Below, piece by piece: positions 155 through 17,434 of a DNA stretch of 24,234 nt (positions are counted from its first letter, which is position 1; each line of letters begins with the position of its first letter). Where the stretch lies: the UHGV virus genome UHGV-0124819, one strand, 5' to 3'. The position numbers and the translations under genes were made by a program. Below the pieces are notes generated by a model, which saw only the letters and a program-made list of their open reading frames with translations, made no database searches and was not told where the DNA came from. This DNA comes from a virus.

Positions 155-1138
155 CTAATTCCTATCAGCAGGTAGAATTGCTGGGTAGAGCTTAGAGCAA
201 TCATTGCCATAGTCAGGGATAAAGTCCCATAGCCCTTTTGGCGTTTGGAAGACCTCAGGGCTTAAGCCAATCAGCATATAAACATGAACTAACAGCTCGC
301 GCAATCCAGTGACCATTTGCTTTATTTGTTTTTCATCAGAGAAAGAAGTGGTGAAGGGTTTTTCTTCAATGGAGTCAAAAAGAATAAACTCATGTTTTTC
401 ATATCGATAGTCGATCCCTAATTCTCTGCAAAGTTGGATAATATTGATTTCGAGCATTTGAAGGGAAATCACTTGGATATCATAAGAAGTCTCTTTGTTG
501 TAACAGCTTTTAATAGCTTTGTTGATATTCTTATAATAATCTTGAACTCTACCCATAAATAATGAACTTATTTCTTTGCTATAGCCTTCTTCAATAGAGG
601 ATTTTGTAAAAATATTCATGTAAAGAATATAAGGGTGAGAAATGGAAGGTTCTATATATTTTTTTCCATCATCGTGTTCGGTAAACTCTCTACTAACGAT
701 AAATGAAGGGACAGTTTTAAAAATATCGGCATAACTCTTCTGGTGGGCATAAAATGAATCAGATTTATTTTTTGCTTTTACCAGCTCTATTTGATGCTCT
801 GTCCTTGAAAGCTGCGTCTCTGTTTGAATGGTCCTGTGAATATTCTTAACTATAGCTCCAAGAGGTACTGAACTGGCTAGCAGCATTAGAGGGAATTTAC
901 TGATTTCGTAAAAGCGAGTATAGCCGTGGGCACTTAACACCGGGACCTTGCCCCACCATGCGAAAATCCCAAAATAAAAGAATGATAATACTGGTATTCC
1001 GATTGATAACCAGAATAATTTCTGTTTTATAAGGTTTTGTTCATTTAATAAATACCACTTGTATTTATATGTTAAATACAATATGTATATTAACATTACA
1101 ACATAGAACATAATGCCAATTGATGAATAAAGGGTCAT
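155..1138 (-). CDS. Hypothetical membrane-anchored protein: N-terminal 2-3 transmembrane helices plus a ~230-aa soluble domain; AT-rich cargo (moron) gene between int and att
   Basis: 327-aa ORF. Hydrophobic N-terminal segments IGIMFYVVMLIYILYLTY and LFWLSIGIPVLSFFYFGIFAWW, with a possible third, FPLMLLASSVPLGAIV. Start ATG at 1136-1138 overlaps the int stop codon in an ATGA arrangement. Composition is strongly AT-biased and Lys/Ile/Tyr/Asn-rich, unlike the neighbouring int. No recognisable catalytic motif. Confidence 0.65.
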   Translation of the reverse strand: MTLYSSIGIMFYVVMLIYILYLTYKYKWYLLNEQNLIKQKLFWLSIGIPVLSFFYFGIFAWWGKVPVLSAHGYTRFYEISKFPLMLLASSVPLGAIVKNIHRTIQTETQLSRTEHQIELVKAKNKSDSFYAHQKSYADIFKTVPSFIVSREFTEHDDGKKYIEPSISHPYILYMNIFTKSSIEEGYSKEISSLFMGRVQDYYKNINKAIKSCYNKETSYDIQVISLQMLEINIIQLCRELGIDYRYEKHEFILFDSIEEKPFTTSFSDEKQIKQMVTGLRELLVHVYMLIGLSPEVFQTPKGLWDFIPDYGNDCSKLYPAILPADRN

Positions 1139-2164: not shown

Positions 2165-2797
2165 TCAAAGGCTCTTAATGATTTTCAGTGCGCGGCCTAC
2201 TACCTCAATGTCATCCAGGCCGCACTCAAACGATGAATCATCCTGATGCACTACTAATTTGTTTCCCGGGAGTCGAGTCAATTTAACAATGCTTTTTATC
2301 CCGTCGATATCGACTAACCACATACCATTTACTAGTGGTGTTTGGTTGCGATCTATTAAATAAGAATCACCAGAAGTAGTCACCAGCAGTAGGTTGCTTG
2401 AGTTTGAGGGGAGTATGCTGCTATCAATGATTGCTTTTCCAGCATCGATCAATAAACCACCGTTGAGAGTCGCCTTGTCAATTTCAGGAGATACTAGTTC
2501 AGAAAGAGGTATAACCTTGCTGGAGTTCACGGAATTGATATTTTTTTTGGGTTCAATGTTTGAACCTGGCTCCCCCTGTCCGGTGGTTAGCCACAGTAAA
2601 GAAACTCCTGTTTCCAAGGCGCACTGAATCACCCACTCTGCAGGAAAACTATCTCTTAAGTATCTGTTTGCCATGGTACTTTTTGATGCGCCTAAGTGAT
2701 CGCAAAGTTGCTGTCTGGACTTGAAATCATAGGCTGCCATTAGTCTATGGATAGCCTCTCTTCCCCCTGTATTCTCTCCAGCCTTTACCTGTATCAT
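2165..2797 (-). CDS. cI: CI-type immunity repressor
   Basis: 210 aa. N-terminal HTH-like segment KSTMANRYLRDSFPAEWVIQCALETGVSLLWLTTG. Sits divergent to the early operon, with its stop 1 nt from the int start, matching the 186 cI-int lysogenic operon layout. Confidence 0.8.
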   Translation of the reverse strand: MIQVKAGENTGGREAIHRLMAAYDFKSRQQLCDHLGASKSTMANRYLRDSFPAEWVIQCALETGVSLLWLTTGQGEPGSNIEPKKNINSVNSSKVIPLSELVSPEIDKATLNGGLLIDAGKAIIDSSILPSNSSNLLLVTTSGDSYLIDRNQTPLVNGMWLVDIDGIKSIVKLTRLPGNKLVVHQDDSSFECGLDDIEVVGRALKIIKSL

Positions 2798-2809
2798 TTT
2801 TTAATCCTG

Positions 2810-2861
2810 TTGACGTATCAAATATTTGATCGTAGTATCTAGATGTATCAAATATTGAATC
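2810..2861 (+). promoter_or_regulatory. Lytic promoter (pR-like) with embedded palindromic operator and a second operator-like repeat in the cI/apl switch region
   Basis: -35 TTGACG (2810-2815), 17-nt spacer, -10 TAGTAT (2833-2838). The spacer contains the perfect 14-bp palindrome ATCAAATATTTGAT (2817-2830). A near-repeat GTATCAAATATTGAATC lies at 2845-2861. Confidence 0.5.
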
Positions 2862-2916
2862 AAGTAAAACGAGATAAAACGACGTAAACCAAACCTTAAT
2901 CGGGAGATACTGCACT

Positions 2917-3159
2917 ATGAGCACTGATATTTCAATTCGTGTACCAAAAGAGATGGCTACGCCTGCAGAGTTCGCGGAATGGGAAGGTATCTCCCGCGGC
3001 TCCGTGTATCAAAAAATTCACCATGGTCAGCTTGCTAAATACATGGTCAAGAAAGAAAAAAACAAAGGCCGCGTAAGCCTGCGTTATTTAATGTACAAAA
3101 CCGATCAGGTCCGTGAATCCCTCGGTCATTCCAACTTCCGCGTCATTGTTGGTAAGTAA
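2917..3159 (+). CDS. Apl/Cox-type small HTH excisionase-regulator, first gene of the early lytic operon
   Basis: 80 aa. SD GGGAGA upstream. HTH-like segment ATPAEFAEWEGISRGSVYQKIHHGQL. Size and position are equivalent to 186 apl and P2 cox. Confidence 0.6.
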   Translation: MSTDISIRVPKEMATPAEFAEWEGISRGSVYQKIHHGQLAKYMVKKEKNKGRVSLRYLMYKTDQVRESLGHSNFRVIVGK

Positions 3160-3191
3160 GTTCAATTATGAGAACTTTCTAAGGGGGTAGC

Positions 3192-3701
3192 ATGTTTGAT
3201 TATAAGATTTCCAAACACCCGCATTTTGATGAAGCCTGTAGAGCTTTTGCACTTCGTCACAATATGGCGAAGCTGGCAGAACGTGCAGGAATGAATGTCC
3301 AGACTTTGCGAAACAAACTCAACCCAGATCAACCGCATCAGCTAAATGCGCCAGAAATCTGGCTGCTTACCGATCTGACTGAAGATTCAACGCTGATAGA
3401 TGGTTTTCTGGCACAGATTCACTGCCTGCCATGTGTACCGATTAATGAGGTAGCAAAAGAGAAACTGCCGCATTACGTCATGAGTGCAACCGCAGAGATC
3501 GGGCGTGTTGCTGCAGGTGCGGTATCTGGAGATGTAAAAACCAGTGCAGGTCGTCGTGATGCTATCAGCAGCATTAACTCTGTAACACGACTGATGGCGC
3601 TGGCTGCTGTTTCATTGCAGGCCCGTTTACAGGCTAACCCTGCGATGGTGAGTGCAGTTGATACCGTGACTGGCCTCGGTGCTTCATTCGGTTTGCTGTG
3701 A
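3192..3701 (+). CDS. cII: CII-like lysogeny establishment regulator (186 CII family)
   Basis: 169 aa, the length I recall for 186 CII. Position directly after apl. SD AAGGGGG. Assignment is by synteny and size, not by a motif. Confidence 0.7.
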   Translation: MFDYKISKHPHFDEACRAFALRHNMAKLAERAGMNVQTLRNKLNPDQPHQLNAPEIWLLTDLTEDSTLIDGFLAQIHCLPCVPINEVAKEKLPHYVMSATAEIGRVAAGAVSGDVKTSAGRRDAISSINSVTRLMALAAVSLQARLQANPAMVSAVDTVTGLGASFGLL

Positions 3702-3708
3702 GGTGCTT

Positions 3709-4005
3709 ATGCTGAAGAAAGAACCATCATTTGCATCGCTGCTGGTAAAACAAAGCCCGGCAATGCACTACGGTCACGGCTGGATCATGGGTGAGGATGG
3801 GAAACGCTGGCATCCATGTCATTCACAAGATGAATTGCTGTCTGAATTGACCACGAGGAAACGGAGAAAGTCAAAATGTATGCAGCGGAAAGTGAAGTGG
3901 TTTATCAGTTTCGTTACAGAGGGGAGAGTTATTCAGTACCTGAAGATGATTTGCTCTGTTGTTATCCGTCGTTGTCGGGCGATGGCAGTTACTTTTTCAC
4001 GCTAA
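3709..4005 (+). CDS. Hypothetical small early protein (fil/dhr-region ORF); the 3' portion overlaps the next ORF in another frame
   Basis: ATG at 3709 preceded by GAGGTG. The first ~55 codons look protein-like; the remainder overlaps 3876-4100 and looks compositionally odd (Arg/Lys/Cys-rich). Confidence 0.3.
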   Translation: MLKKEPSFASLLVKQSPAMHYGHGWIMGEDGKRWHPCHSQDELLSELTTRKRRKSKCMQRKVKWFISFVTEGRVIQYLKMICSVVIRRCRAMAVTFSR

Positions 4006-4100
4006 GGGATGGGACGTTTTTACGGGGAGAGCAGGTTAAAGAGACGATACGAAAAAATGTATCTCCTCTTGAACGTTACCGTAAGAACAAAGAACGATAG
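3876..4100 (+). CDS. Hypothetical small early protein
   Basis: 74-aa ORF with a strong SD (GGAGAAAG) 7 nt upstream of the ATG. Confidence 0.45.
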   Translation: MYAAESEVVYQFRYRGESYSVPEDDLLCCYPSLSGDGSYFFTLRDGTFLRGEQVKETIRKNVSPLERYRKNKER

Positions 4101-4122
4101 TTGCGTTTTGGGAATATGAATT

Positions 4123-4464
4123 ATGGCAATTAATGGCGCTGCAGCAACTGTTCCATTAAGCCCCGGTGAACGCCTGAATGGACTTAATCATATTGCGGAG
4201 TTAAGGGCGAAAGTTTTTGGCCTGAATATTGAGTCAGAGCTTGAGCGGTTTATTAAAGATATGCGTGATCCACGGGATATCAATAGCGAACAAAATAAAC
4301 GGGCACTGGCTGCCATATTCTTTATGGCAAAAATTCCAGCTGAACGTCACAGCATCAGCATTAATGAGCTGACCACTGACGAAAAGCGGGAGTTGATTAA
4401 AGCAATGAATCATTTTCGTGCAGTAGTGAGCTTATTCCCCAGACGACTAACCATGCCGAATTAA
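4123..4464 (+). CDS. Hypothetical early-region protein
   Basis: 113-aa ORF, co-oriented within the early operon, typical host-like codon usage. Confidence 0.6.
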   Translation: MAINGAAATVPLSPGERLNGLNHIAELRAKVFGLNIESELERFIKDMRDPRDINSEQNKRALAAIFFMAKIPAERHSISINELTTDEKRELIKAMNHFRAVVSLFPRRLTMPN

Positions 4465-4531
4465 CAAACTAATGAACTTCATGGCGTAAACACGCCGGGT
4501 ATCCCTTTACCTAAATTCAGGAGAATTGATT

Positions 4532-4765: not shown

Positions 4766-4992
4766 TGGCTGATGCAATGGATCTCGTACAGCAGCGCGTT
4801 GAAGAAGAACGCCAGCGTCATATCCGTACTGCCCGTGCCAAAACGCCGGGCGTGTCCCGCGTGCTTTGCATTGAGTGTGAAGCGCCAATTCCGCCAGCAC
4901 GCCGCCGTGCCATTCCGGGTGTGCAGCTTTGCATTACCTGTCAGGAAATCGCAGGGCTGAAAGGCAAACATTACAACGGAGGTGCTGTATGA
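4765..4992 (+). CDS. TraR/DksA-family C4 zinc-finger protein
   Basis: 75 aa. Cys pairs CIECEAP ... CITCQE form a C4 finger. Common in P2-like early operons. Confidence 0.8.
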   Translation: MADAMDLVQQRVEEERQRHIRTARAKTPGVSRVLCIECEAPIPPARRRAIPGVQLCITCQEIAGLKGKHYNGGAV

Positions 4993-5846
4993 GCACCATC
5001 CTGAAATGGGCGGGAAATAAAACCGCCATTATGTCCGAACTGAAAAAGCATCTTCCTGCTGGCCCGCGACTGGTTGAACCTTTCGCGGGTTCCTGTGCAG
5101 TGATGATGGAGACGGAGTACCCCAGCTATCTTGTTGCGGATATTAATCCTGATTTAATCAACCTCTATAAAAAGGTTGCTGCTGATTGTGAATCATTTAT
5201 ATCTCGCGCCAGAGTTTTATTTGAGATCGCAAACAGGGAGGTAGCTTATTACAACATAAGGCAGGAGTTTAATTACTCAACTGAAATTACTGATTTCATG
5301 AAAGCGGTATATTTCCTGTATCTCAATCGTCACGGTTACCGTGGTTTATGTCGCTATAACAAGAGCGGGCATTTCAACATTCCCTACGGTAATTATAAAA
5401 ATCCGTATTTCCCTGAAAAAGAAATTCGCGCATTTGCAGAAAAAGCCCAGCGAGCAACGTTTATCTGCGCCAGCTTTGATGAAACGCTGGCGATGTTGAA
5501 GGCGGGGGATGTGGTGTATTGCGATCCGCCGTATGACGGTACGTTTTCCGGCTATCACACTGATGGTTTCACTGAAGATGACCAGTATCACCTGGCATCC
5601 GTTCTTGAACATCGGTCATCAGAAGGACATCCGGTCATTGTTTCTAACAGTGACACATCCCTGATCCGTTCGCTGTATCGCAATTTTACTCACCACTATA
5701 TCAAGGTAAAACGCAGCATCGGTGTGGCAGCTGGCGAGGGTAAATCAGCAACAGAAATCATTGCTGTTTCCGGGCCGCGCTGCTGGTTGGGATTTGATTA
5801 TTCGCGTGGCGTGGATAGTTCTGCCGTGTACGGAGTGCGTGCATGA
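4989..5846 (+). CDS. dam: DNA N6-adenine methyltransferase (Dam-like)
   Basis: Start ATG at 4989 overlaps the TraR stop (ATGA). Motifs KWAGNK, SAM-binding EPFAGSCAV, and catalytic DPPY (CDPPYDG). Confidence 0.9.
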
Positions 5847-8257
5847 GCCATGCTGATATGAACAACTGCAGCGGCTTTAACGAGGCCGCCGCAGCATTCT
5901 CATGGAACAGCCCGAAAAAGGCTATTAACCCTTATCTGGACCCGGCGGAAGTTGCGCCGGTTTCTGCGCTTTCAAACCTGATCACTCTGTACGCTGCCGA
6001 TAACGAGCAGGAACAACTGCGCCGCGAGGCACTGAGTGATCAGGTCTGGGAGCGTTATTTCTTTAATGAATCCCGTGATCCTGTCCAACGCGAAATGGAG
6101 CAGGATAAGCTCATTAGCCGGGCAAAGCTGGCGCATGAGCAGCAGCGTTTTAATCCGGACATGGTCATACTGGCGGACGTTAAAGCCCAGCCCTCCCATA
6201 TCAGCAAGCCGCTGATGCAACGTATTGAATACTTCAGCAGCCTGGGCAGGCCAAAGGCTTATTCCCGCTATTTGCGTGAGACGATTAAGCCATGTCTGGA
6301 ACGACTGGAGCATGTACGCGACAGTCAGCTATCCACTTCTTTTCGCTTTATGGCAAGCCATGAAGGGCTGGACGGCCTGCTGATCCTGCCTGAAATGAGT
6401 CAGGATCAGGTGAAACGCCTGTCTACTCTTGTCGCTGCGCATATGAGCATGTGTCTTGATGCCGCTTGTGGTGATTTGTACGCCACCGATGATGTTAAGC
6501 CAGAAGAAATCCGCAAGACATGGGAAAAGGTGGCAGCAGAAACCCTGCGACTGGATGTCATACCGCCTGCGTTTGAGCAACTCCGCCGGAAAAGAAACCG
6601 CCGTAAACCCGTACCCTATGAACTCATTCCGGGTTCGCTGGCGCGTATGTTGTGCGCCGACTGGTGGTATCGGAAATTATGGAAGATGCGTTGCGAATGG
6701 CGGGAAGAGCAGTTGCGTGCTGTTTGCCTGGTCAGCAAAAAAGCATCTCCCTATGTCAGCTATGAAGCCGTGATGCATAAACGTGAGCAGCGCCGTAAGT
6801 CGCTGGAGTTTTTCCGTTCTCATGAACTGGTGAACGAAGACGGCGACACGCTGGATATGGAGGACGTGGTAAACGCCAGTAGTAGCAACCCGGCGCATCG
6901 CCGCAATGAGATGATGGCATGTGTTAAAGGTCTGGAGCTTATCGCGGAAATGCGCGGTGACTGCGCCGTTTTCTACACCATCACCTGTCCGTCACGTTTC
7001 CATTCCACGCTAAATAACGGCAGGCCCAACCCAACCTGGACAAATGCGACGGTAAGACAAAGCAGTGATTATCTGGTCGGCATGTTTGCTGCATTTCGTA
7101 AGGCGATGTACAAAGCCGGATTGCGCTGGTATGGCGTGCGGGTGGCTGAGCCGCATCATGACGGTACAGTTCACTGGCACCTGTTGTGTTTTATGCGCAA
7201 AAAAGATCGCCGCGCCATTACTGCTTTGTTGCGTAAGTTTGCCATCCGTGAAGACCGCGAGGAGCTGGGTAATAACACAGGACCACGCTTTAAGTCTGAG
7301 CTGATAAACCCGCGCAAAGGTACGCCAACAAGCTACATCGCGAAATACATCAGTAAGAACATTGACGGGCGTGGTCTGGCTGGCGAGATCAGCAAGGAAA
7401 CGGGTAAATCCCTGCGTGATAACGCTGAATACGTTAATGCCTGGGCGTCTCTTCATCGTGTTCAGCAATTCCGCTTCTTTGGCATTCCGGGGCGTCAGGC
7501 TTACCGTGAACTGCGATTGCTGGCTGGTCAGGCGGCAAGGCAACAGGGGGACAAAAAAGCAGGTGCGGCGGTACTGGATAACCCACGCCTTGATGCCATC
7601 CTGGCTGCTGCTGATGCTGGTTGTTTTGCCACCTACATCATGAAGCAGGGCGGCGTACTGGTTCCCCGCAAATATCACCTCATCAGAACCGCTTATGAAA
7701 TCAACGAAGAGCCGACCGCCTATGGCGATCACGGCATTCGTATTTATGGCATCTGGTCACCCATTGCAGAGGGCAAGATCTGCACTCATGCAGTGAAGTG
7801 GAAAATGGTTCGTAAGGCCGTTGACGTTCAGGAGGCGGCAGCCGACCAGGGCGCTTGCGCCCCTTGGACTCGTGGCAATAACTGTCCCCTTGCTGAAAAT
7901 TTGAACCAACAGGAGAAAGATAAATCAGCTGATGGGGACCCCAGAACGGACATTACCCGCATGGATGACAAGGTGTTGCACGATTACCTGCACAGTATGA
8001 ACAAAAAGGAGCGCCGGGAATTGGCTGCAAGGTTACGTCTGGTGAAACCGAAACGGCGTAGAGACTACAAACAGCGAATTACAGACCATCAACGACAGCA
8101 GCTCGTCTATGAACTGAAATCCAGAGGATTTGATGGCAGCGAGAAAGAGGTCGATTTACTCCTTCGCGGCGGCAGTATTCCGTCAGGAGCAGGCCTGCGT
8201 ATCTTCTATCGGAACCAGCGTTTGCAGGAAGATGATAAGTGGCGGAACCTGTATTAA
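5843..8257 (+). CDS. A: Rolling-circle replication initiation endonuclease (P2 gpA family)
   Basis: 804 aa. HUH-type motif VHWHLLCF and tandem catalytic tyrosines YIAKYISKN. Start overlaps the dam stop (ATGA). Confidence 0.9.
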
Positions 8258-8349
8258 TTACGCTGGTTAACAATTCGTGCTCTTAATAATACCAGGCATA
8301 TCAGGCTGATAAGCGTAAATAAACGTTTTACATCAGTAAGATTATTATA

Positions 8350-8369
8350 TACTGTAAATATAAACAGTG
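8350..8369 (+). promoter_or_regulatory. LexA operator (SOS box) overlapping a candidate promoter for the tum-like/DinI-like genes
   Basis: TACTGTAAATATAAACAGTG has the CTGT-N8-ACAG core (CTGT 8352-8355, ACAG 8364-8367) and is close to the consensus TACTGTATATATATACAGTA. -35-like TTTACA at 8327-8332. Confidence 0.7.
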
Positions 8370-8410
8370 GTTATACATACAGTATTGCGTGTGGTGTCAT
8401 AGGAGGAAAG

Positions 8411-8599
8411 ATGCAGGACTATTTTTTGGAGTCTTTGAAGCTCCAGCGCATTGATTTTTTTCTTAAGCTTGTAGCGGCTAGTGAGTGTAGTGATGAAGAG
8501 AAGGGGCTGGCTCTGCAGTGGGTTTCTGAATTGACTGATGAACTCATGGCAAAAATCAGAAGCCACGAATACAACCGCTCAATGGATGTCATCAACTGA
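8411..8599 (+). CDS. Hypothetical small protein in the position of the 186 tum (SOS-inducible antirepressor) region
   Basis: 62-aa ORF, ATG at 8411 with SD AGGAGG at 8401-8406. Lies directly downstream of the LexA box. Confidence 0.5.
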   Translation: MQDYFLESLKLQRIDFFLKLVAASECSDEEKGLALQWVSELTDELMAKIRSHEYNRSMDVIN

Positions 8600-8609
8600 G
8601 GTGACTTTT

Positions 8610-8843
8610 ATGTGCATTGAAATAATGATCGATAAAGAGCAGAAGATTAGCCAGTCTACCCTGGACGCCCTTGAATCCGAGCTTTACCGCAATCTGCGCC
8701 CCCTGTATCCCAAAACGGTAATCCGTATCCGTAAAGGTAGCTCTAACGGTGTGGAACTGACCGGACTGCAACTGGACGAAGAAAGAAAACAAGTGATGAA
8801 AATTATGCAGAAGGTGTGGGAAGACGACAGCTGGCTGCATTGA
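8610..8843 (+). CDS. DinI-family protein (DNA-damage-inducible protein I-like)
   Basis: 77 aa, MCIEIMIDKEQ...LDALESEL...QKVWEDDSWLH. Aligns by eye over its full length with E. coli DinI (MRIEVTIAK...IDALAGEL...QETWESADDW). SD GAGGTG upstream. Confidence 0.8.
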   Translation: MCIEIMIDKEQKISQSTLDALESELYRNLRPLYPKTVIRIRKGSSNGVELTGLQLDEERKQVMKIMQKVWEDDSWLH

Positions 8844-8897
8844 TTTTGTCAATAGACGCTTGTTTTTACTAATCAAAAAGGGTTACATATGAGTGAG

Positions 8898-8931
8898 AGG
8901 CGATGTCAATCAGATATCGCCTTGTTTTTTG
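8898..8931 (+). terminator. Intrinsic terminator after the DinI-like gene
   Basis: Stem AGGCGAT / ATCGCCT (8898-8904 / 8916-8922) followed by TGTTTTTTG. Confidence 0.55.
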
Positions 8932-8956
8932 TCAAGAAAAGAATAATAGGCTAAAA

Positions 8957-9634
8957 ATGAAAATTAATAACGTAGCGTTACCAATATCTCTTGCTGTAAT
9001 CCTAACTGGTTGCGTGCCACATGCTTCTAACCGAAATATCACTGCTATTGAAGTGGTGAAGCCTGCTATTGGGCAAAGTGCTACCGCCTACATGGGCGAT
9101 CCCATTATCACATCTGCTACTGGATTTAAAACGGACGTACTAGAACTTGGTGCGGCTAATGGTGCATTGTCTTCTATCGCTGCTGGTACATATTGCAGTG
9201 AGGGGAATGGAATTTACCGCAATTATCATAACCCTCAAGCTGTTGCGTTAAAAAATCTCTATGGGCAAATCGGTAACTATGTTGATTATGTTAGTTACGA
9301 TGCTGCAAAAAATGAGATATCACCGCCAAATGGTACTTCTTATACTGCATCAGAAATTTCTATCAAACGTGTTCCTGATGGGCTGTGTCGAGTTAGTAAC
9401 TCATTGGTTAAGACTATCGAATACAATGGAAATGCAGGCGGTGTAATGAAGTTCACCTATCGTGAATTTGCAAACGATATGGCTCGTGCAGCATTTACAA
9501 CAGATTTTTCTGTAGATTCTAAGGGAAGTGACGTTATCGCTTACAAAGGTGCCAAGTTCAAAGTGAACAAGGCTGATAACTCGTCTATTTCTTATACAAT
9601 TATTTCTGGCTTTGACAAGGCTGTCACGTTCTAG
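8957..9634 (+). CDS. Lipoprotein of unknown function (moron)
   Basis: Signal peptide MKINNVALPISLAVILTGC with lipobox LTGC. 225-aa Gly/Ser/Thr/Asn-rich mature part. AT-biased. Bracketed by terminators at 8898-8931 and 9739-9765. Confidence 0.75.
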   Translation: MKINNVALPISLAVILTGCVPHASNRNITAIEVVKPAIGQSATAYMGDPIITSATGFKTDVLELGAANGALSSIAAGTYCSEGNGIYRNYHNPQAVALKNLYGQIGNYVDYVSYDAAKNEISPPNGTSYTASEISIKRVPDGLCRVSNSLVKTIEYNGNAGGVMKFTYREFANDMARAAFTTDFSVDSKGSDVIAYKGAKFKVNKADNSSISYTIISGFDKAVTF

Positions 9635-9738
9635 GTTTCACGCTTGCTGAGTATGTTACGATTTTGCACATTCTGCATAAACGCGCATGTCTATGCTGCA
9701 TGAGATCGCATGATCGTTTGAGGATCTTTTGTGTTAAG

Positions 9739-9765
9739 GCCCGCCAGTTCTGGCGGGCTTTTGCG
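9739..9765 (+). terminator. Intrinsic terminator
   Basis: Perfect 8-bp stem GCCCGCCA / TGGCGGGC (9739-9746 / 9751-9758), loop GTTC, then TTTTGCG. Confidence 0.7.
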
Positions 9766-9807
9766 TAGATCATGCAGGTGCATGAAAACCACTACATAAA
9801 GCGGGCA

Positions 9808-9826
9808 GGCGTGGCGGGGATACGAG
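9808..9826. other. Candidate cos site (19-nt cohesive-end region)
   Basis: GGCGTGGCGGGGATACGAG begins with GGCGTGGCGGGGA, matching the first 13 nt of the 186-type cohesive end as I recall it (GGCGTGGCGGGGAAAGCAT). GC-rich element in a non-coding gap between the replication and portal gene blocks. Confidence 0.45.
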
Positions 9827-9973
9827 CGCGCGCAAGGTATAGAAACAGTCGTTTGTTTACAAACAGATACTATGATTTTCAATGTTCTTTCAAATTGTTG
9901 CTTTAAGATAGCAGGTAGATGTTTGTAGTTGTTGCGTGAACTGATAAGCTTCTACAACTATCGAGGAAAGGAT

Positions 9974-11041
9974 ATGAAGCGGCTAACTGAAGAACAAATT
10001 GAACATTCTTTGATCAGAGCAAGGAAGATTGCGAAGCGGGAGTCAAGAAAGCTTTCTGGTGGAAGACGGATGCTACAGCCCATGCGGGTATTCTCTCGTG
10101 TGAGAATACCCGCGCCTGCGTCATTGGACTTATTTAATACTAAAAATTACAAACTATTTATAGAGTTTATCACTTTAATAAGAGATTACATCAATGATGG
10201 TGAGAAAATTTTAATAGATTTCAGAAATACAAAATCTCTGAAAGCATGTGCAGTAATCGTATTGTATGCACATATTGACTTTTTACAAAGGCAAACAAAA
10301 GATAAAAATATAATTTCTATTACTACGTGCGGTTCATCCAGGGCAAATAACTGGTTTAAAATATGTGGTATTTGGGGGATTACAGGGTTTCAGCGTATAG
10401 CTGCAGATAAGCTTAATTCAATGGAAATTGTTTCCGCTGTTGCAGGCAAAACTAGAGATGATCATGAAAGTGCCGAAGCAAGACAAAAAATTAAAAATAT
10501 TCTACGTTATATAAAAGATACCATTTATGAAGGTAAGATTTCCGCTTCGGATGGTGTGAAATTATATGCAGCCTTAACTGAATCTATTAGCAATGTTGGT
10601 CTACATGCGTATTCAAATGAAGAACAGTTCTCTGAATTTATTGAGGACATTGGTAAAAGATGGTGGATATTGGCACACAAAGTCGAAGAACAACTATTTT
10701 TGATGGTGTATGATATGGGAGAAGGTATCCCAGTTACATTGGTTAAAAAAGACTTTTTCACATTTATCGCTCAGATATTTAATCCTAAGACGGATTCTGA
10801 TAAAATATTCGCGGCTGTACAGTATGGTGAGACAAGAATGAATAGTCAGAAGCATGGTAAAGGATTACCTGATATGAAAAGGTATGTTGTAGATAACCCT
10901 GAGGGGCAGTTACATATTTTTAGTGGAATGGGACGATATTCTTATGATGCTGAAAATAATGTTGAAGATAAATTTGATCTGCCATACTCCATAGGTGGAA
11001 CCCTTATTCAATGGAATGTAAGTTTGAGAGGTGCTGAATGA
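9974..11041 (+). CDS. Cassette gene 1: protein with a C-terminal GHKL-superfamily ATPase/kinase domain (RsbW/SpoIIAB-like) and an N-terminal domain of unknown function
   Basis: 355 aa from ATG 9974 (SD GAGGAAAGG). N-box-like LTESISNVGLHAY (10580-10612; compare SpoIIAB SEAVTNAIIHGY), G1-box-like YDMGEGIP (10709-10732), G2-like HGKGLPD (10853-10873). AT-rich. Confidence 0.6.
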   Translation: MKRLTEEQIEHSLIRARKIAKRESRKLSGGRRMLQPMRVFSRVRIPAPASLDLFNTKNYKLFIEFITLIRDYINDGEKILIDFRNTKSLKACAVIVLYAHIDFLQRQTKDKNIISITTCGSSRANNWFKICGIWGITGFQRIAADKLNSMEIVSAVAGKTRDDHESAEARQKIKNILRYIKDTIYEGKISASDGVKLYAALTESISNVGLHAYSNEEQFSEFIEDIGKRWWILAHKVEEQLFLMVYDMGEGIPVTLVKKDFFTFIAQIFNPKTDSDKIFAAVQYGETRMNSQKHGKGLPDMKRYVVDNPEGQLHIFSGMGRYSYDAENNVEDKFDLPYSIGGTLIQWNVSLRGAE

Positions 11042-11358
11042 AAATCAAAGAGATACATGTTGCTGAAGATTTTTCAGATGTTCCCTATGGCCGCTATGAT
11101 GAGGATGGTCCTGATAATGGACAACGTTTCCGTGAAAAGTATCTTTTGAAAGCCATCCAAGATTATGATGAGGTGCACGTGTACCTTGATGGTGCTATGG
11201 GTTATGGTTCTTCATTCTTGGAAGAGGCGTTTGGTGGACTTTATAGAACAAATAATATAGATAAAGCTATAATTAGGAAAAAATTAAAAATATTTACTGA
11301 TTTGGATTTCCTCAAGGATAGTATATGGGGATATATTTCTGATGCTAAAAAGGAGTGA
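11038..11358 (+). CDS. Cassette gene 2: small acidic protein, possibly STAS-like (anti-sigma-factor-antagonist-like, DUF4325-type)
   Basis: 106 aa. ATG overlaps the gene 1 stop (ATGA at 11038-11041). Segment VHVYLDGAMGYGSSFLEEAFGG (around 11200-11235) resembles the SpoIIAA/RsbV pattern h-h-D-x-S/G-x-h-x-h-DSSGLG. Confidence 0.5.
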   Translation: MKIKEIHVAEDFSDVPYGRYDEDGPDNGQRFREKYLLKAIQDYDEVHVYLDGAMGYGSSFLEEAFGGLYRTNNIDKAIIRKKLKIFTDLDFLKDSIWGYISDAKKE

Positions 11359-11363
11359 TGTTC

Positions 11364-11852
11364 ATGGATGAACTTCCGGTTTATCTGCGGTTATTACAAT
11401 ACCTTGCTAGTTCAGGTGTGATTGCAATTCTAACAGCCTTGATTGGTTGGGTTTTTGTTTATAGAAACTCCCGTGCGTTGCAAAAGAGGAGTGAAACATG
11501 GTCAATTGTAAAAAATGTTTCAGATAATTTAAAGGAAATTGAATCTGCATCAAGAAAGTTTTGGATACCGGGAGATTCAAAAGAAATTGATGCAATGTCA
11601 TTTCAAAATGAGATAACAGCACTTCTTGCGGAGACCGAGCGGTGGTTGAATCATCTAAAACAACGCATTAATATCGAAGGTGACTATAAACCTTTGATTG
11701 CTGATTTATTCAAAGATGCTACATCTAATATTGAAAAAGCACAGGAGTATGATAAAAGTCAAAGGACAAGAATTAGTGTATTAGTGTCAAAAAGGGCGAA
11801 AATAATTAAATCTCTAATTGATGAGTCTTATCAGAAAAAATTCTTAAAGTGA
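11364..11852 (+). CDS. Cassette gene 3: single-pass membrane protein with a C-terminal coiled-coil-like region
   Basis: Likely ATG at 11364, 9 nt after SD AAGGAG and 5 nt after the gene 2 stop. TM helix VIAILTALIGWVFVY, then a charged heptad-like Lys/Glu-rich region. AT-rich. Confidence 0.6.
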   Translation: MDELPVYLRLLQYLASSGVIAILTALIGWVFVYRNSRALQKRSETWSIVKNVSDNLKEIESASRKFWIPGDSKEIDAMSFQNEITALLAETERWLNHLKQRINIEGDYKPLIADLFKDATSNIEKAQEYDKSQRTRISVLVSKRAKIIKSLIDESYQKKFLK

Positions 11853-11862
11853 TAATTTGTTA

Positions 11863-11891
11863 CGGCACGGTAGTGCCGTAGTTTTTTTTCT
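11863..11891 (+). terminator. Intrinsic terminator closing the three-gene cassette
   Basis: Stem ACGGCAC / GTGCCGT (11863-11869 / 11874-11880), loop GGTA, then a T8 run. Confidence 0.75.
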
Positions 11892-11937
11892 TATTATGTG
11901 TTGAGCGATGGATGTCCTATTAAGTGATGTAAATGTA

Positions 11938-12963
11938 TCAGAATGAATATATTTCAAATTCTATTATTTTTTTATCAAGCCATTCATTTATCTCTCCTAA
12001 GCGTTTTTGTAATGGTATAAGTTCGTTTCGTACAAACACTTTACTTGCTTTCTCCACATCCCCAAACCCCCCAACATTATTAGGCATAATCCCCATCATC
12101 TGAGGCGGCACGCGGTGCGCTGCCATCATGTCATCCCGACTCACGTTCTTGATATTAAGAAATTCATCCTTCGCCGCGACTTCTGACAATGGGATGATCT
12201 GAAGCCCGTCCTTTTTGCCGTTAGGCGAGTACATAAACAGGTTGCGGAAGTTGCCTGGACCTTTGGCGCTTTTCATCGCGTTGCGGAGGTTGTTCACATC
12301 CTCCTGGTTTTGTGCGGCATCGGTCATGTACATGATAAAGCCCGCATGGCTGCCGTTAATGTAATACTTGCGACGGAACAGCGTGGCGGACTCGTTGAGC
12401 AGGGCTGACGGAATGGCAGAAAGATAACCGGGCAGGCCGTAGATCTCCTGGTTGATGTCCGGTTCCATCAGATGAAAGATGCTGCCTTTCGTGAACTGAT
12501 ATGGCTGCGTGGTCATACCGTATTGCACAAACCAGTAGGTATCCAGGTCTAACCCGCGTCGGGTGTATTTTGCCAGGGCAGGTTCAAGGGCGATAACTTC
12601 ACCGAAGCGGTTCGTGCGTTTCTCCAGGTAGGCGTTACCAAATACCAGATAGTCCTGCACAAAACGCGAAAAAGCCTGCTGGCTGAGCAGCGGGTGAGGG
12701 ATGTAGGTGCTGGTCAGAATGTTGCACTTTACTGCAATCGGGGAACTATGATGCACGGCAGCGCGGAAGGTGCGCGCCAGTCCGTCAAAGCTGACGGGCG
12801 GCTCATACCAGCGGTCCATCTGTACGCATTCCACATAATCCAGCAGTTCTCGGCGGTCCAGAACAGGAACGGGATCGCCGAAGCTGAATGCTTCGGCTGT
12901 AGTTTGACTTTTAAGCTGGATCTGTTTCGTCGCCGCAGTGCGGTTCTTCTTACTCTTTCCCAT
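11938..12963 (-). CDS. Q: Portal protein (P2 gpQ family)
   Basis: 341 aa, the size and position of P2 gpQ. Convergent with the cassette and immediately followed (upstream on the minus strand) by the terminase gene. Assigned by synteny and length. Confidence 0.9.
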   Translation of the reverse strand: MGKSKKNRTAATKQIQLKSQTTAEAFSFGDPVPVLDRRELLDYVECVQMDRWYEPPVSFDGLARTFRAAVHHSSPIAVKCNILTSTYIPHPLLSQQAFSRFVQDYLVFGNAYLEKRTNRFGEVIALEPALAKYTRRGLDLDTYWFVQYGMTTQPYQFTKGSIFHLMEPDINQEIYGLPGYLSAIPSALLNESATLFRRKYYINGSHAGFIMYMTDAAQNQEDVNNLRNAMKSAKGPGNFRNLFMYSPNGKKDGLQIIPLSEVAAKDEFLNIKNVSRDDMMAAHRVPPQMMGIMPNNVGGFGDVEKASKVFVRNELIPLQKRLGEINEWLDKKIIEFEIYSF

Positions 12964-14729
12964 CAAAAAATCTCCACAATATTGCTGGTATTGGCGGATT
13001 CGCCCTGCAGCGGTTCGTTAAACAGTGCGTGCATCGTTGCCCAGGCCAGATCGGCGTGGCTGGCTTCTTCGCTGCGGCTGGCTTCATAGGTCGGGCGGTT
13101 GCCACTGGCGGTGGTGGCGCGACGGATTGCCATGAATGACTGCGCAATGTCGGTGTGCCCGGCGTCAAACTCAAGACGGCGGTGGCTGATAATGTCGTAG
13201 GCCTTGAGTACCAGGGCGTTTTTAACGTTGGGGTTGTAGACAAACTCCCGGACGGCAGGAAAAAACGCTTTCACGTTCTCGTAAACCCCGTGACCAACGC
13301 CGGTTGAGTCGATGCCGATATAGGTCACGTTGTACCGTTCGGTCAGTTTTTTGATGGCGTCAGCCTGGGCGCGAAAGTCCATTCCGCGCCACTGGTGACG
13401 CTCAAGAATGCGGAACTTACCGCCCGGCACGGCTGGCGGTGCCACCACCACGCATCCGGCGCTGTCGCCGTTTTGCGTACCTTTTGCCGGGTCATAACCG
13501 ATCCACACTTCGCGCCAGCCAAACGGGCGCAGAGCCAGTGCATGAAAGTCGGTCCAGACTTCCCAGCTGTCCACCATGCACGCCTGCAGCTCGCTGAGCG
13601 GGAACACGGACGCGAGATCGTCCACGAACTCACACATCAGCAGGTTCTGGTATTCGTCCGGGCTGTATTCCATGCGTAACTGGTCGAGGTCGAACAGGTT
13701 ACATCCGCCGCGCACCGCATCTTCTACGGTGACTATCTGGCGGTATTGCCCGTCTGCGCACAGCAGGCCGGGGGCCAGATTGCTGTGGGACAGGTCGATG
13801 TCCACCTTATCGGCTTTGTTGCGCCCACGGTTGAACAGCGCACCGGACCAGAACGGATAAGCACTGTGTGTCAGACTGGATGGCGTGGAAAAATAGGTCT
13901 GTCGCCATTTCTTGTGAATAGCCATACCGGAAGCCACTTTGCGCAGCTCCTGGAATTTCGGTATCCAGAAATATTCATCCAGATACAGGTTGCCGTGATA
14001 ACTCTGGGCCGTGCGGGCATTGGTGCCGAGGAAGTAAAGCGTGGCCCCGTTGGGAAGCACCATCGGATCACCTTTCAGCTCCACCTCCACTTCTTTGGCG
14101 AAGTCGATGATGTACTGCTTAAAGACGTGGGCCTGTGCCTTGCTGGCGGAAAGGAAAATCTGGTTACGTCCGGTCAGCAGAGCGTCAATCAGGGCTTCAC
14201 GGGCAAAATAGAAGGTCGCGCCGATCTGGCGTGACTTCAACAGGTTGCGGATGCGGTTGGTTTTTCCGGCTTCCCACCAGTGGCGCTGGTAGTTGAACAT
14301 GGAGGAATGGAAGATTTCCTCCAGCTTTTCAATCTGTTCATCGGTGAAAACGTTCTTTTCCGGCTGACGACGCGGGCCTTTGTTGCGGTTGGCGACGTTA
14401 GGGTTTAAGTCGGCTTCGTTGCCGCCATTGTTAAACTTGCCGATCCGCGCGTGGCGCTCAGACTGGCGCGCCAGCAGGTCAATCTCTTTGAAATCTTTCC
14501 CTTCTTTGTGCTCCTTCATAATGAGCTGGCAGTAGCGGGCGGCGGTGGTGAGCTGCATCTGATCCAGCGGCCCATAGTCACCCCACTTGTCGCGTTTTTT
14601 CCAGCTGTGAACGGTTGCAACTTTCTCGCCCAGCATTTCAGCAATGCGGGCTACGCGGTATCCCTGAAAGTACAGCAGCATGGCCTGCCGACGGGGATCG
14701 AGATCTGCGGGTGTCAGTGTGGTGTTCAT
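12963..14729 (-). CDS. P: Terminase large (ATPase) subunit (P2 gpP family)
   Basis: 588 aa, the size and position of P2 gpP, in the Q-P operon divergent from O. Confidence 0.95.
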   Translation of the reverse strand: MNTTLTPADLDPRRQAMLLYFQGYRVARIAEMLGEKVATVHSWKKRDKWGDYGPLDQMQLTTAARYCQLIMKEHKEGKDFKEIDLLARQSERHARIGKFNNGGNEADLNPNVANRNKGPRRQPEKNVFTDEQIEKLEEIFHSSMFNYQRHWWEAGKTNRIRNLLKSRQIGATFYFAREALIDALLTGRNQIFLSASKAQAHVFKQYIIDFAKEVEVELKGDPMVLPNGATLYFLGTNARTAQSYHGNLYLDEYFWIPKFQELRKVASGMAIHKKWRQTYFSTPSSLTHSAYPFWSGALFNRGRNKADKVDIDLSHSNLAPGLLCADGQYRQIVTVEDAVRGGCNLFDLDQLRMEYSPDEYQNLLMCEFVDDLASVFPLSELQACMVDSWEVWTDFHALALRPFGWREVWIGYDPAKGTQNGDSAGCVVVAPPAVPGGKFRILERHQWRGMDFRAQADAIKKLTERYNVTYIGIDSTGVGHGVYENVKAFFPAVREFVYNPNVKNALVLKAYDIISHRRLEFDAGHTDIAQSFMAIRRATTASGNRPTYEASRSEEASHADLAWATMHALFNEPLQGESANTSNIVEIF

Positions 14730-16783: not shown

Positions 16784-17434
16784 ATGAGCCTGAGTCCCGC
16801 ACGGCAGCATCGCCTGCGCGTTCAGGCTGAACAGGCCGCCCGTGAGGGCGGCAGCGTTCGCCACGCGTCGGGCTATGACCTGATGCTGCTGCAACTGGCG
16901 GAAGACCGCCGCCGTCTCAAGGGCGTTCAGTCCACGGTCAAAAAAGCGGAAATCAAAGTGGAGCTGCTGCCGAAGTACGCCGCCTGGGCGGAGGGTGTCC
17001 TGGCTGCCGGAGGCGCTCAACAGGATGACGTGCTGATGTACGTGATGCTGTGGCGCATTGATGCCGGAGATTATGCCGGGGCGCTGGAGATCGGGCGTCA
17101 TGCCCTGCGTCATGGCTGGGTGATGCCGCTGGGTAACCGCAACGTGCAGACCGTGCTGGCAGAGGAAATGGCAGACGCCGCACAGAGCGCAATGCTTGCC
17201 GCCACCGGCTTTGATGTCGATCTGTTGCTGCAGACGCTGGAGCTGACAGACGGTCTGGATATGCCGGACCAGTCACGGGCGCGTCTGCATAAAGCGATTG
17301 GCGCGGTCTTGAGTGAAAGCAATCCGGCTTCCGCCCTTAATCATCTCAACCATGCGTTACAGCTCGATCCCCGCTGTGGCGTGAAAAAAGACAAACAGCA
17401 GCTGGAGCGCAGACTGCGCAATGACAGACGCTGA
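16784..17434 (+). CDS. M: Terminase small (endonuclease) subunit (P2 gpM family)
   Basis: 216 aa. Segments DDVLMYVMLWRIDAGDYAGALEIGRHAL and TLELTDGLDMPDQSRARLHK match P2 gpM as I recall it. Confidence 0.85.
   Translation: MSLSPARQHRLRVQAEQAAREGGSVRHASGYDLMLLQLAEDRRRLKGVQSTVKKAEIKVELLPKYAAWAEGVLAAGGAQQDDVLMYVMLWRIDAGDYAGALEIGRHALRHGWVMPLGNRNVQTVLAEEMADAAQSAMLAATGFDVDLLLQTLELTDGLDMPDQSRARLHKAIGAVLSESNPASALNHLNHALQLDPRCGVKKDKQQLERRLRNDRR

What the first reader, a model, noticed from the sequence alone, without database searches (positions are those of the whole stretch)
9808..9826. Candidate cos site places the three-gene cassette between cos and the portal gene
GGCGTGGCGGGGA at 9808-9820 matches the start of the 186/P2-type 19-nt cohesive end as I recall it. 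If this is cos, then about 2 kb of cargo (9974-11852) lies between cos and the end of the portal gene, where P2 has only a short spacer. That would be an unusual insertion point right next to the packaging site.
Basis: partly seen in the sequence, partly recalled or inferred. Interest (0 to 1): 0.35.

Follow-up and report, generated by a model that had tools for sequence, protein, structure and literature searches.

The report
Phage cos site beside cargo hotspot
The motif is almost certainly the DNA-packaging cut site (cos) of a Fels-2/P2-type prophage, and the three genes between it and the portal gene sit in a long-known, very commonly used slot for swappable accessory genes, so the arrangement is ordinary.

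Summary
Observation confirmed. GGCGTGGCGGGGA occurs once in the window, at 9808-9820, and equals the first 13 nt of the annotated 186 cohesive end.

The cos reading is strongly supported, but by homology only. The 19-mer 9808-9826 matches 186 at 15/19 and P2 at 14/19. The 30 nt upstream match each at 23/30, in register. GCGCGC follows at +21..+26. GCAT(G/T)N motifs sit at the same offsets (-110, -100, -28) as in P2, 186 and P4. All 75 close relatives that reach far enough keep this core.

The "unusual insertion point" reading is not supported. In this clade, similarity ends at cos+25..+29. The cos-to-portal interval is 183-3524 bp, with about 40 unrelated cargo types, and 73/75 loci carry more than 500 bp there. 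The figures are 2/79 for P2-type and 8/80 for 186-type loci.

The cos-to-portal slot was described by Dodd & Egan (1996) and lies within the Rousset et al. (2022) gpA-gpQ defence hotspot. The cassette is their untested P2 system no. 61. It encodes a SpoIIAB-like GHKL ATPase, a STAS-like protein and a small membrane protein.

Virion ends have not been mapped for this cos variant. Low interest.

The parts
9685..9833 (+). Conserved 'cos island' of about 149 bp (cos -123 to +26) between two variable regions
   Evidence: In 62 of 75 relatives the alignment spanning cos starts at 9685, and it ends at 9831-9836 in 74 of 75. With one representative per cargo type, per-column conservation is about 90-100% from -120 to +26 and at background from +27.
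9808..9826 (+). Predicted 19-nt cohesive-end sequence (cos). By analogy with 186, the top strand is nicked 5' of 9808 and the bottom strand after 9826, giving 5' overhangs.
   Evidence: Matches the annotated 186 cos at 15/19 and P2 cosL at 14/19. Identical in Fels-2. Annotated 'putative cos site' at base 1 of the phage SEN8 record. The cut positions are inferred and have not been measured.
9828..9833 (+). GCGCGC at cos +21..+26, the last conserved element before the cargo
   Evidence: Invariant in the window, P2, 186 and P4. Present in most relatives (56 of 75 carry the exact 26-mer).
9778..9807 (+). Conserved 30 nt immediately 5' of the cut (TGCATxAAAACC...AAGxGGGC), part of the 55-bp P2-family cos core
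   Evidence: 23/30 identical to both P2 and 186 without gaps. The blocks are invariant across four phages.
9698..9713 (+). Two GCATGA motifs (9698-9703 and 9708-9713) at cos -110 and -100; candidate terminase recognition repeats
   Evidence: GCAT[GT]N lies at the same offsets in P2, 186 and P4. Four of the window's 16 GCATGA/TCATGC copies lie within 9698-9785, where 0.1 per 150 bp would be expected. The function is inferred.
9770..9785 (.). TCATGC (9770-9775, inverted copy, cos -38) and GCATGA (9780-9785, cos -28)
   Evidence: The -28 copy is shared by P2, 186 and P4. The -38 copy is shared with 186.
9739..9758 (+). GC-rich hairpin (8-bp stem, 4-nt loop) followed by TTTT, at cos -69..-50. Possibly the terminator of the upstream operon and/or a structural element of cos.
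   Evidence: P4 has an 8-bp hairpin at -70..-49 and 186 a 5-bp one at -66..-53, with different sequences. P2 has none.
9834..11937 (+). Variable cargo region on the portal side of cos. It is AT-rich (about 32-37% GC, against 52-61% in the portal and terminase genes).
   Evidence: The same 2.1-kb block is >=99.8% identical in 20 of 5426 complete E. coli genomes.
9974..11041 (+). Cassette gene A: 355-aa protein with an N-terminal alpha/beta domain and a GHKL (Bergerat-fold) ATP-binding domain
   Evidence: Weak Pfam HATPase_c hit. Invariant N, G1 and G2 boxes across 18 homologues. AlphaFold model pLDDT 81. Foldseek hits are all GHKL domains, with SpoIIAB giving the best target coverage at TM 0.72.
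11038..11358 (+). Cassette gene B: 106-aa STAS-like protein (DUF4325)
   Evidence: Pfam PF14213, E 3.5e-12. Invariant GxSF[LI][DE]EAFGGL block including Ser59.
11364..11852 (+). Cassette gene C: 162-aa protein with one N-terminal transmembrane helix and a helical, charged C-terminal part
   Evidence: Translation. The start follows the RefSeq annotation of the identical locus. Alignment across cassettes. Rousset's note for the P4 counterpart reads '1 TM in protein 3'.
11859..11882 (+). Intrinsic-terminator-like hairpin plus T-run ending the cassette
11938..12966 (-). Portal gene (P2 gpQ / 186 W homologue); right-hand border of the variable region
   Evidence: Pfam Phage_portal. Homology to relatives resumes at 11938-12032.
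12963..14729 (-). Terminase large subunit (gpP homologue), the enzyme expected to cut cos
   Evidence: Pfam Terminase_5, Terminase_6N and Terminase_6C.
16784..17434 (+). Terminase small subunit (gpM homologue), the expected cos-recognition subunit
   Evidence: Pfam Phage_term_smal, E 2.6e-40.
8257..9684 (+). Second variable region, on the gpA side of cos. In the window it holds a DinI/Tum-like gene (8538-8843) and an orf97-like gene (8903-9634).
   Evidence: The gpA-end-to-cos distance is 791-5096 bp in relatives. E. coli HH194M pairs the same cassette with different gpA-side genes.

Best explanation
Positions 9808-9826 are the cos site of a Fels-2-like (P2-family, Peduoviridae) prophage. After excision and circularisation, the phage terminase (large subunit 12963-14729, small subunit 16784-17434) makes staggered nicks here. 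This leaves 19-nt 5' cohesive ends, so the cassette and then the portal gene become the left end of the virion DNA.

The conserved recognition information lies almost entirely on the gpA side of the cut. It comprises the about 150-bp island 9685-9833, with GCAT(G/T)N repeats at -110, -100 and -28 and the TGCATxAAAACC...AAGxGGGC block. It extends only 7 nt beyond the overhang on the portal side, ending with GCGCGC at +21..+26. Everything from about +27 to the portal stop codon is dispensable for packaging. That stretch serves as a slot where accessory cassettes are swapped, probably by recombination between the conserved cos island and the portal gene.

In this prophage the slot holds an AT-rich three-gene operon: a SpoIIAB-like GHKL ATPase, a STAS-like protein and a single-pass membrane protein. 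It is Rousset et al.'s untested P2-hotspot system no. 61 and is most plausibly an anti-phage or lysogenic-conversion module.

Shown here: sequence identity and register, conservation and variability in relatives, and the domain content of the cassette. Inferred: the cut positions, the role of the repeats, the swap mechanism and the cassette's function.
For: - The motif is unique in the window, with a chance expectation of 0.02.
- Ungapped, in-register identity to the annotated cos of 186 and P2: 15/19 and 14/19 in the 19-mer, 23/30 in the upstream 30 nt, and GCGCGC at +21..+26.
- GCAT[GT]N motifs lie at identical offsets (-110, -100, -28) in the window, P2, 186 and satellite P4, which shares only cos with P2.
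- Terminase large and small subunit genes and the portal gene are present and full length.
- 75 of 75 relatives with enough sequence keep the cos core. Conservation falls to background at +27. The cos-to-portal distance is 183-3524 bp with 40 cargo clusters.
- Fels-2 is identical up to cos+29 and then carries a different 1.7-kb gene.
- The plaque-forming phages SEN8 and Cartapus are annotated with a putative cos at the same motif and have cargo before the portal gene.
- Literature: a 55-bp cos core; the cosL-gpQ position suggested as a hotspot (Dodd & Egan 1996; Nakayama 1999, as cited in PMC5694545); retron Ec67 between cos and the packaging gene; the gpA-gpQ cos-proximal defence hotspot (PMC9122126).
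- Cassette: 32-37% GC; invariant GHKL motifs; fold closest to SpoIIAB; DUF4325 STAS-like partner; TM protein; the three-gene order is kept down to 26% identity, including outside phages; listed as P2 system 61 and related to P4 system 69.
Against: - No physical mapping of virion ends exists for this 19-mer variant. SEN8, Cartapus and Smp131 all set or label cos as putative or by analogy.
- Positions 14-19 differ from P2 and 186, so the exact overhang is assumed.
- The window does not show the whole prophage, so inducibility is unknown.
- The role of the GCAT repeats is my inference. I could not read Ziermann & Calendar 1990 to compare with their deletion data.
- The cassette has no hit in PADLOC or NCBIfam and is absent from Rousset's tested set, so a defence function is unproven.
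- The relatives are the 80 best of at least 600 IMG/VR hits per query and include redundant genomes, so the proportions are approximate.
Confidence: 0.88

Rival explanations
1. The sequence is the ancestral cos but is no longer used. On this view the prophage is defective, or replacing the native cos-portal spacer with cargo has impaired packaging, so the site is a relic.
For: No induction or virion data exist for this prophage. The P2-type (about 170 bp) spacer and its tQ terminator are absent. No T-rich terminator for the portal operon is visible on the minus strand in 11853-11937.
Against: The same architecture, with cargo starting at +27, is found in 73 of 75 relatives with 40 different cargos. 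Meanwhile the cos island stays about 100% conserved, which argues for ongoing selection on cos. Plaque-forming phages SEN8 and Cartapus share the layout. The portal and both terminase genes are intact.
Confidence: 0.06
2. The site is cos, but the cut positions or overhang differ from the P2/186 model, for example a different length or offset, because positions 14-19 have diverged.
For: Four to five of the 19 positions differ from 186 and P2, nearly all in 14-19. All database annotations for this variant are by analogy.
Against: The flanks on both sides (-30..-1 and +21..+26) keep exact register with P2, 186 and P4, including the repeat offsets. This makes a shifted cut unlikely.
Confidence: 0.05
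3. The 13-mer is a chance GC-rich match, and the true cos lies next to the portal stop as in P2.
For: None beyond the P2 precedent for a short spacer.
Against: Chance expectation is 0.02. No cos-like sequence lies near 11853-11937; the best other matches in the window have 5-6 mismatches of 19 and sit inside genes. About 150 bp of flanking conservation holds in relatives and in register with P2, 186 and P4.
Confidence: 0.01

Closest known systems
cos sites of coliphages P2 and 186 (19-nt 5' cohesive ends; 55-bp conserved core, Ziermann & Calendar 1990)
   Same: The first 13 nt are identical to 186. The upstream 30 nt match at 23/30. GCGCGC lies at +21..+26. GCAT repeats lie at -110, -100 and -28. 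The site sits between the gpA-side accessory genes and the portal gene, with the same terminase and portal gene set.
   Different: Positions 14-19 read ATACGAG rather than AAAGCAT or AAAGCAC. P2 and 186 have a spacer of about 170 bp with a terminator before the portal stop, whereas here 2.1 kb of cargo replaces it.
Fels-2 (Felsduovirus) and its relatives SEN8, RE-2010, Cartapus and Klebsiella P2-like prophages
   Same: The cos island is identical up to +26..+29. Cargo lies between cos and the portal gene: STM2723.1 in Fels-2, two genes in SEN8 and a DUF4145 gene in Cartapus.
   Different: The cargo content is unrelated. This three-gene cassette is in none of the 50,697 deposited phage records.
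Retrons Ec67/Ec86 in 186-related prophages (Dodd & Egan 1996), and cargo next to cosL in phiCTX and phiRSY1
   Same: Foreign DNA replaces the segment between cos and the end of the portal/packaging operon. The position has been explicitly proposed as a pick-up point for foreign genes.
   Different: The cargo here is not a retron. I could read these sources only through citing papers, because the originals are not held.
P2 gpA-gpQ cos-proximal defence hotspot and the P4 cos-adjacent hotspot (Rousset et al. 2022; Moura de Sousa et al. 2026)
   Same: The locus lies between gpA and gpQ. The cassette is their curated P2 system no. 61 ('DUF4325', 68 occurrences), and the same three-gene design is P4 system no. 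69. As in P4, the cargo starts right after cos+26.
   Different: Those studies treat gpA-gpQ as one interval. Here the interval resolves into two variable regions separated by the cos island, and use of the portal-side slot is clade-dependent. In P2 itself the cargo genes tin and old lie on the gpA side.
SpoIIAB/SpoIIAA and RsbW/RsbV partner-switching modules (GHKL serine kinase plus STAS protein)
   Same: Gene A has the GHKL N, G1 and G2 boxes and a fold closest to SpoIIAB. Gene B is STAS-like with an invariant serine.
   Different: No sigma factor is present. A small membrane protein is the third component. Gene A has an extra N-terminal domain. Fold E-values are weak (about 1e-3), and kinase activity is untested.

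Membership tests
P2-family cos site | GC-rich 19-nt cohesive-end sequence beginning GGCG(A/T)GGCGGGGA | tested here: met
   Exact 13/13 match. The 19-mer matches 186 at 15/19 and P2 at 14/19. It is unique in the window.
P2-family cos site | Conserved core of about 55 bp around the cut, shared by P2, 186 and P4 | tested here: met
   The -30..-1 stretch matches at 23/30, and GCGCGC lies at +21..+26, all ungapped. Blocks are invariant across four phages. The exact limits of the published 55-bp core could not be checked, because the paper is not held.
P2-family cos site | Located between the replication (gpA)-side accessory region and the portal gene, with P2-type portal and large and small terminase genes | tested here: met
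P2-family cos site | Terminase cleavage producing 19-nt 5' overhangs in virion DNA | not testable with these tools
   This needs virion DNA. Database annotations of this variant are all 'putative' or by analogy.
P2-like cos-proximal cargo/defence hotspot (gpA-gpQ) | Lies between gpA and gpQ, adjacent to cos | tested here: met
   gpA is at 5843-8257, cos at 9808, and the portal gene at 11938-12966.
P2-like cos-proximal cargo/defence hotspot (gpA-gpQ) | Hypervariable gene content between otherwise near-identical phages, with sharp conserved borders | tested here: met
   40 cargo clusters among 75 loci whose portals are >=93% identical. The borders are at cos+25..+29 and the portal stop.
P2-like cos-proximal cargo/defence hotspot (gpA-gpQ) | The cargo confers anti-phage defence | not testable with these tools
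   No PADLOC hit. The cassette is listed in the catalogue but is not among the evaluated systems.
Partner-switching module (SpoIIAB/RsbW-type kinase plus STAS protein) | GHKL ATP-binding domain with N, G1 and G2 boxes | tested here: met
   E203/N207, D247xG249xG251 and G295xG297L298 are invariant in 18 homologues. Foldseek: SpoIIAB, TM 0.72 on the target.
Partner-switching module (SpoIIAB/RsbW-type kinase plus STAS protein) | Cognate STAS-domain partner with a phosphorylatable serine | tested here: inconclusive
   DUF4325 'STAS-like', E 3.5e-12. Ser59 is invariant in GxSF. Its equivalence to the SpoIIAA phosphoserine was not established structurally.
Partner-switching module (SpoIIAB/RsbW-type kinase plus STAS protein) | A sigma factor, or another defined output protein, sequestered by the kinase | tested here: not met
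   There is no sigma factor in the cassette. The third gene encodes a single-pass membrane protein.

The most novel reading that the evidence does not exclude
The three-gene cargo (P2-hotspot system 61, with a distant counterpart in P4-hotspot system 69) may be an uncharacterised anti-phage system. It would work by partner switching: a SpoIIAB-like GHKL kinase/ATPase and a STAS-like protein hold a small membrane protein in check, and infection flips the switch to cause membrane damage and abortive infection.

Separately, the sharp cos+27 border and the repeats confined to the gpA side imply that P2-family terminases need no more than 7 bp beyond the overhang on the left-end side. That would explain why both Fels-2-like phages and P4 satellites place their swappable cargo exactly there.
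Probability: 0.3. Interest if true: 0.5.

Novelty: already known. Interest (0 to 1): 0.15.

Why it matters
For the scan, this settles the map of the prophage. cos is at 9808-9826, and the cassette is accessory cargo rather than phage core. The genes to its left (DinI/Tum-like, orf97-like) form a second, independent accessory region.

The practical value is modest. First, the cos island 9685-9833 is a ready-made candidate minimal packaging signal for Fels-2-type transducing particles. Second, the data show that what is usually treated as one "gpA-gpQ hotspot" is really two slots separated by cos, and that use of the portal-side slot depends on clade (about 97% of Fels-2-like loci, about 3% of P2-type). 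Third, the cassette is a reasonable candidate for defence-system testing. None of this changes current understanding of P2-family biology.

Tried and rejected
- PADLOC and NCBIfam gave no meaningful hits for the cassette or the orf97-like protein. PHROGs gave only families of unknown function.
- A profile search of PDB sequences gave only insignificant kinase/EF-hand hits. The fold search was needed to place protein A.
- The cassette DNA has no match in the 50,697 phage records.
- I could not obtain Ziermann & Calendar 1990, Dodd & Egan 1996 or Odegrip 2006. Statements about them rest on citing papers.
- I looked for any record of this cos variant with physically mapped ends. SEN8, Cartapus and Smp131 are all putative or by analogy.
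- My first cos alignment wrongly trimmed 19 real bases from the 186 right end, because that record does not duplicate cos. This was corrected.
- A fixed-register conservation plot from the portal stop was uninformative, because portal C-termini vary in length. I replaced it with BLAST end-points.
- I considered and rejected a second cos next to the portal stop.
- I considered recent P4-to-P2 transfer of the cassette. The identity of only 28-49% and the report of almost no recent P2-P4 exchange argue against it.
- The 9739-9758 hairpin is not the positional equivalent of 186's annotated t95b, which lies at -189..-162.

Full report
**1. The observation**

GGCGTGGCGGGGA is present at 9808-9820 on the + strand. 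It is the only match in the 24-kb window on either strand, even with one mismatch allowed. Chance expectation is 0.02. The GenBank records of P2 and 186 are deposited as virion DNA starting at cos. They annotate GGCGAGGCGGGGAAAGCAC (P2 cosL/cosR) and GGCGTGGCGGGGAAAGCAT (186 cos, "top strand cut at 5' end and bottom strand cut at 3' end"). The full window 19-mer, GGCGTGGCGGGGATACGAG (9808-9826), matches 186 at 15/19 and P2 at 14/19.

**2. Is it cos?**

The window is a P2-family prophage. The gene layout is:
- integrase 1135-2163;
- CI 2165-2797;
- CII-like 3192-3701;
- Dam-type methylase 4929-5846;
- gpA 5843-8257;
- DinI/Tum-like 8538-8843;
- 186 orf97-like 8903-9634;
- the motif at 9808;
- the three-gene cassette;
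- portal 11938-12966 (-);
- large terminase 12963-14729 (-);
- small terminase 16784-17434.

I aligned the window without gaps on the cut site. It shares 23 of the 30 upstream nucleotides with both P2 and 186, and GCGCGC at +21..+26. That is as similar as P2 and 186 are to each other (24/30).

GCAT(G/T)N motifs lie at the same offsets from the cut in the window, P2 and 186: -123/-122, -110, -100 and -28. Satellite P4 has no other homology to P2, yet it has them at -110, -100 and -28 as well. In the window, 4 of the 16 GCATGA/TCATGC copies lie within 9698-9785, where 0.1 per 150 bp would be expected.

No cos-like sequence exists in the 85 bp between the cassette and the portal stop. I conclude that 9808-9826 is cos. 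This rests on homology. I found no physical end-mapping for this 19-mer variant. SEN8 (its record starts at this motif, labelled "putative cos site"), Cartapus ("putative cos site, homologous to the cos of P2 phage") and Smp131 ("deduced by analogy") are all inferences.

**3. Relatives**

Using the portal protein, I fetched 80 IMG/VR loci with >=93% identical portals. All 75 that extend far enough contain the cos core. I took one representative for each of 40 cargo clusters. Column conservation is then about 90-100% from -120 to +26 and drops to background at +27.

BLAST end-points agree. The alignment spanning cos ends at cos+24..+29 in 74 of 75 loci and starts at 9685 in 62 of 75. Homology resumes only at the portal stop codon or within its last codons, at 11938-12032. 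So cos sits in a conserved island of about 150 bp (9685-9833) between two variable regions.

The cos-to-portal interval ranges from 183 to 3524 bp (median about 1.7 kb). Of the 75 loci, 73 carry more than 500 bp there and only two have a P2-like short spacer. Fels-2 is identical to the window from 9640 to cos+29 and then carries its own 1.7-kb gene, STM2723.1.

**4. Other clades**

I ran the same measurement on 80 P2-type and 80 186-type loci.

| Clade | Loci with cos found | Short spacer | Intermediate | Long cargo |
|---|---|---|---|---|
| Fels-2-like (window's clade) | 75 | 2 (about 183 bp) | none | 73 (>500 bp) |
| P2-type | 79 | 77 (about 170 bp) | none | 2 (>500 bp) |
| 186-type | 80 | 62 (158-219 bp) | 10 (377-491 bp) | 8 (1.3-1.7 kb) |

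The gpA-to-cos interval is variable in all three clades. In P2 itself the cargo genes tin and old are on the gpA side. These samples are the best 80 of at least 600 hits per query and contain redundant genomes, so the proportions are approximate.

**5. What is already known**

[quoted passage not shown] It also refers to the 55-bp cos core of Ziermann & Calendar.
- Rousset et al. 2022 describe the cos-proximal gpA-gpQ region as a defence hotspot, with 1,650 arrangements in 18,150 E. coli loci. Moura de Sousa et al. 2026 confirm it.
- The P4 hotspot is likewise directly adjacent to cos. In the P4 sequence it starts right after +26, on the same side as here.

The insertion point is therefore not unusual.

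**6. The cargo**

Region 9834-11937 is AT-rich, at 32-37% GC against 52-61% for the portal and terminase genes. It ends with a terminator-like hairpin at 11859-11882.

The block is >=99.8% identical in 20 of 5426 complete E. coli genomes. It is absent from deposited phage records. The cos island, including its more divergent versions, occurs in about 1250 of those genomes. In strain HH194M the same cassette is paired with different gpA-side genes, so the two slots assort independently.

- **Gene A (355 aa).** It has a weak HATPase_c hit and invariant GHKL N, G1 and G2 boxes across 18 homologues. The AlphaFold model is good (pLDDT 81, pTM 0.81). All its Foldseek matches are GHKL domains, and SpoIIAB gives the best target coverage (TM 0.72 and 0.69).
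- **Gene B (106 aa).** It is DUF4325 "STAS-like", with an invariant GxSF[LI][DE]EAFGGL block.
- **Gene C (162 aa).** It has one N-terminal transmembrane helix.

The three-gene order is conserved at the same cos-portal slot in Klebsiella (87% identity) and Serratia (58%) prophages. It also occurs in a non-phage chromosomal context at 26% identity.

The exact proteins appear in Rousset's Table S5 as curated P2 system no. 61 ("DUF4325", 68 occurrences). They do not appear in Table S2, the table of systems evaluated for defence. P4 system no. 69 ("HATPase_c | DUF4325", "1 TM in protein 3") is a distant homologue:

| Protein | Identity to P4 system 69 | E-value |
|---|---|---|
| A | 28% | 3e-31 |
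| B | 49% | 4e-29 |
| C | 28% | 3e-4 |

They are consistent with the reported lack of recent P2-P4 exchange.

**7. Mechanism, and what is inferred**

Shown here:
- the sequence relationships;
- the conserved island and its sharp borders;
- the diversity of the cargo;
- the domain content of the cassette.

Inferred from established P2/186 biology:
- terminase nicks 5' of 9808 (top strand) and after 9826 (bottom strand), giving 19-nt 5' overhangs;
- the cassette therefore becomes the left-terminal genes of the virion DNA.

Inferred from the conservation pattern:
- terminase recognition elements lie on the gpA side, and at most 7 bp beyond the overhang is needed on the portal side;
- this is why that side tolerates arbitrary cargo;
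- cassettes are exchanged by recombination between the cos island and the portal gene.

Speculative: the cassette acts as a partner-switching defence module with a membrane effector.

**8. Verdict**

The cos assignment is well supported by homology. The "unusual insertion point" claim is not supported. This is a known, heavily used cargo slot of P2-family phages, holding an already catalogued but untested cassette. Interest is low.

Noticed in passing
window 9698-9703, 9708-9713, 9770-9775 (inverted), 9780-9785; also GCATGT at 9685-9690: GCAT(G/T)N repeats lie at fixed offsets from the cut (-123, -110, -100, -28; inverted copy at -38). The same offsets occur in P2, 186 and P4, although the sequence between them has diverged. 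They are candidate terminase small-subunit binding repeats, all on the gpA side of cos.
   Followed up: partly
window 9739-9758: A GC-rich 8-bp hairpin followed by TTTT lies inside the cos island at -69..-50. P4 (8 bp, -70..-49) and 186 (5 bp, -66..-53) have hairpins of different sequence at the same offset, and P2 has none. It is not the equivalent of 186's annotated t95b terminator, which lies at -189..-162.
   Followed up: partly
window 8257-9684, and L086 (E. coli HH194M) 2326-4500: The gpA-to-cos interval is a second variable region (791-5096 bp in relatives). HH194M carries the same cassette but has a DUF6694 lipoprotein gene set in place of the window's DinI/orf97-like genes, so the two slots flanking cos assort independently.
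   Followed up: partly
window 8352-8367: CTGTAAATATAAACAG fits the LexA-box pattern CTGT-N8-ACAG. It lies upstream of a small ORF (8411-8599) and the DinI/Tum-like gene (8538-8843), resembling the SOS-controlled p95/tum operon of 186. It is the only such match in the window, with a chance expectation of 0.37.
   Followed up: no
window 11938-12032: Homology to close relatives resumes anywhere from the portal stop codon to about 95 nt inside the gene. The last codons of the portal gene therefore vary with the cargo, so the right-hand recombination junction is often inside the portal 3' end.
   Followed up: partly
window 155-1138 (- strand): A 327-aa ORF with no Pfam hit lies beyond the integrase gene (1135-2163) at the prophage edge. 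The integrase-att interval is reported as a minor defence hotspot in P2-like elements (PMC13586616), so this may be further cargo.
   Followed up: no
window 9974-10440 (residues about 37-156 of cassette protein A): In the model, the N-terminal half of the GHKL protein is a confident alternating beta-alpha domain (pLDDT about 93). The whole-chain fold search did not identify it. It might be a second STAS-like or sensor domain.
   Followed up: no
L254 (2974-4029) and L255 (5001-6978): Distant homologues of cassette protein A occur outside P2 prophages. One (32% identity) stands alone between a 976-aa protein and a 2137-aa DEAD/Helicase_C/MZB protein, a context that resembles a defence island. 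The other (26% identity) is a complete three-gene cassette among ordinary chromosomal genes.
   Followed up: partly
window 9837-9973: The 137-bp leader between cos+29 and the cassette start codon contains inverted repeats (GTTTGTTTACAAACAG around 9852-9867, and TAGTTG...CAACTA around 9924-9961). They could be operator or promoter elements of the cassette. The promoter scan found no strong sigma-70 match there.
   Followed up: no
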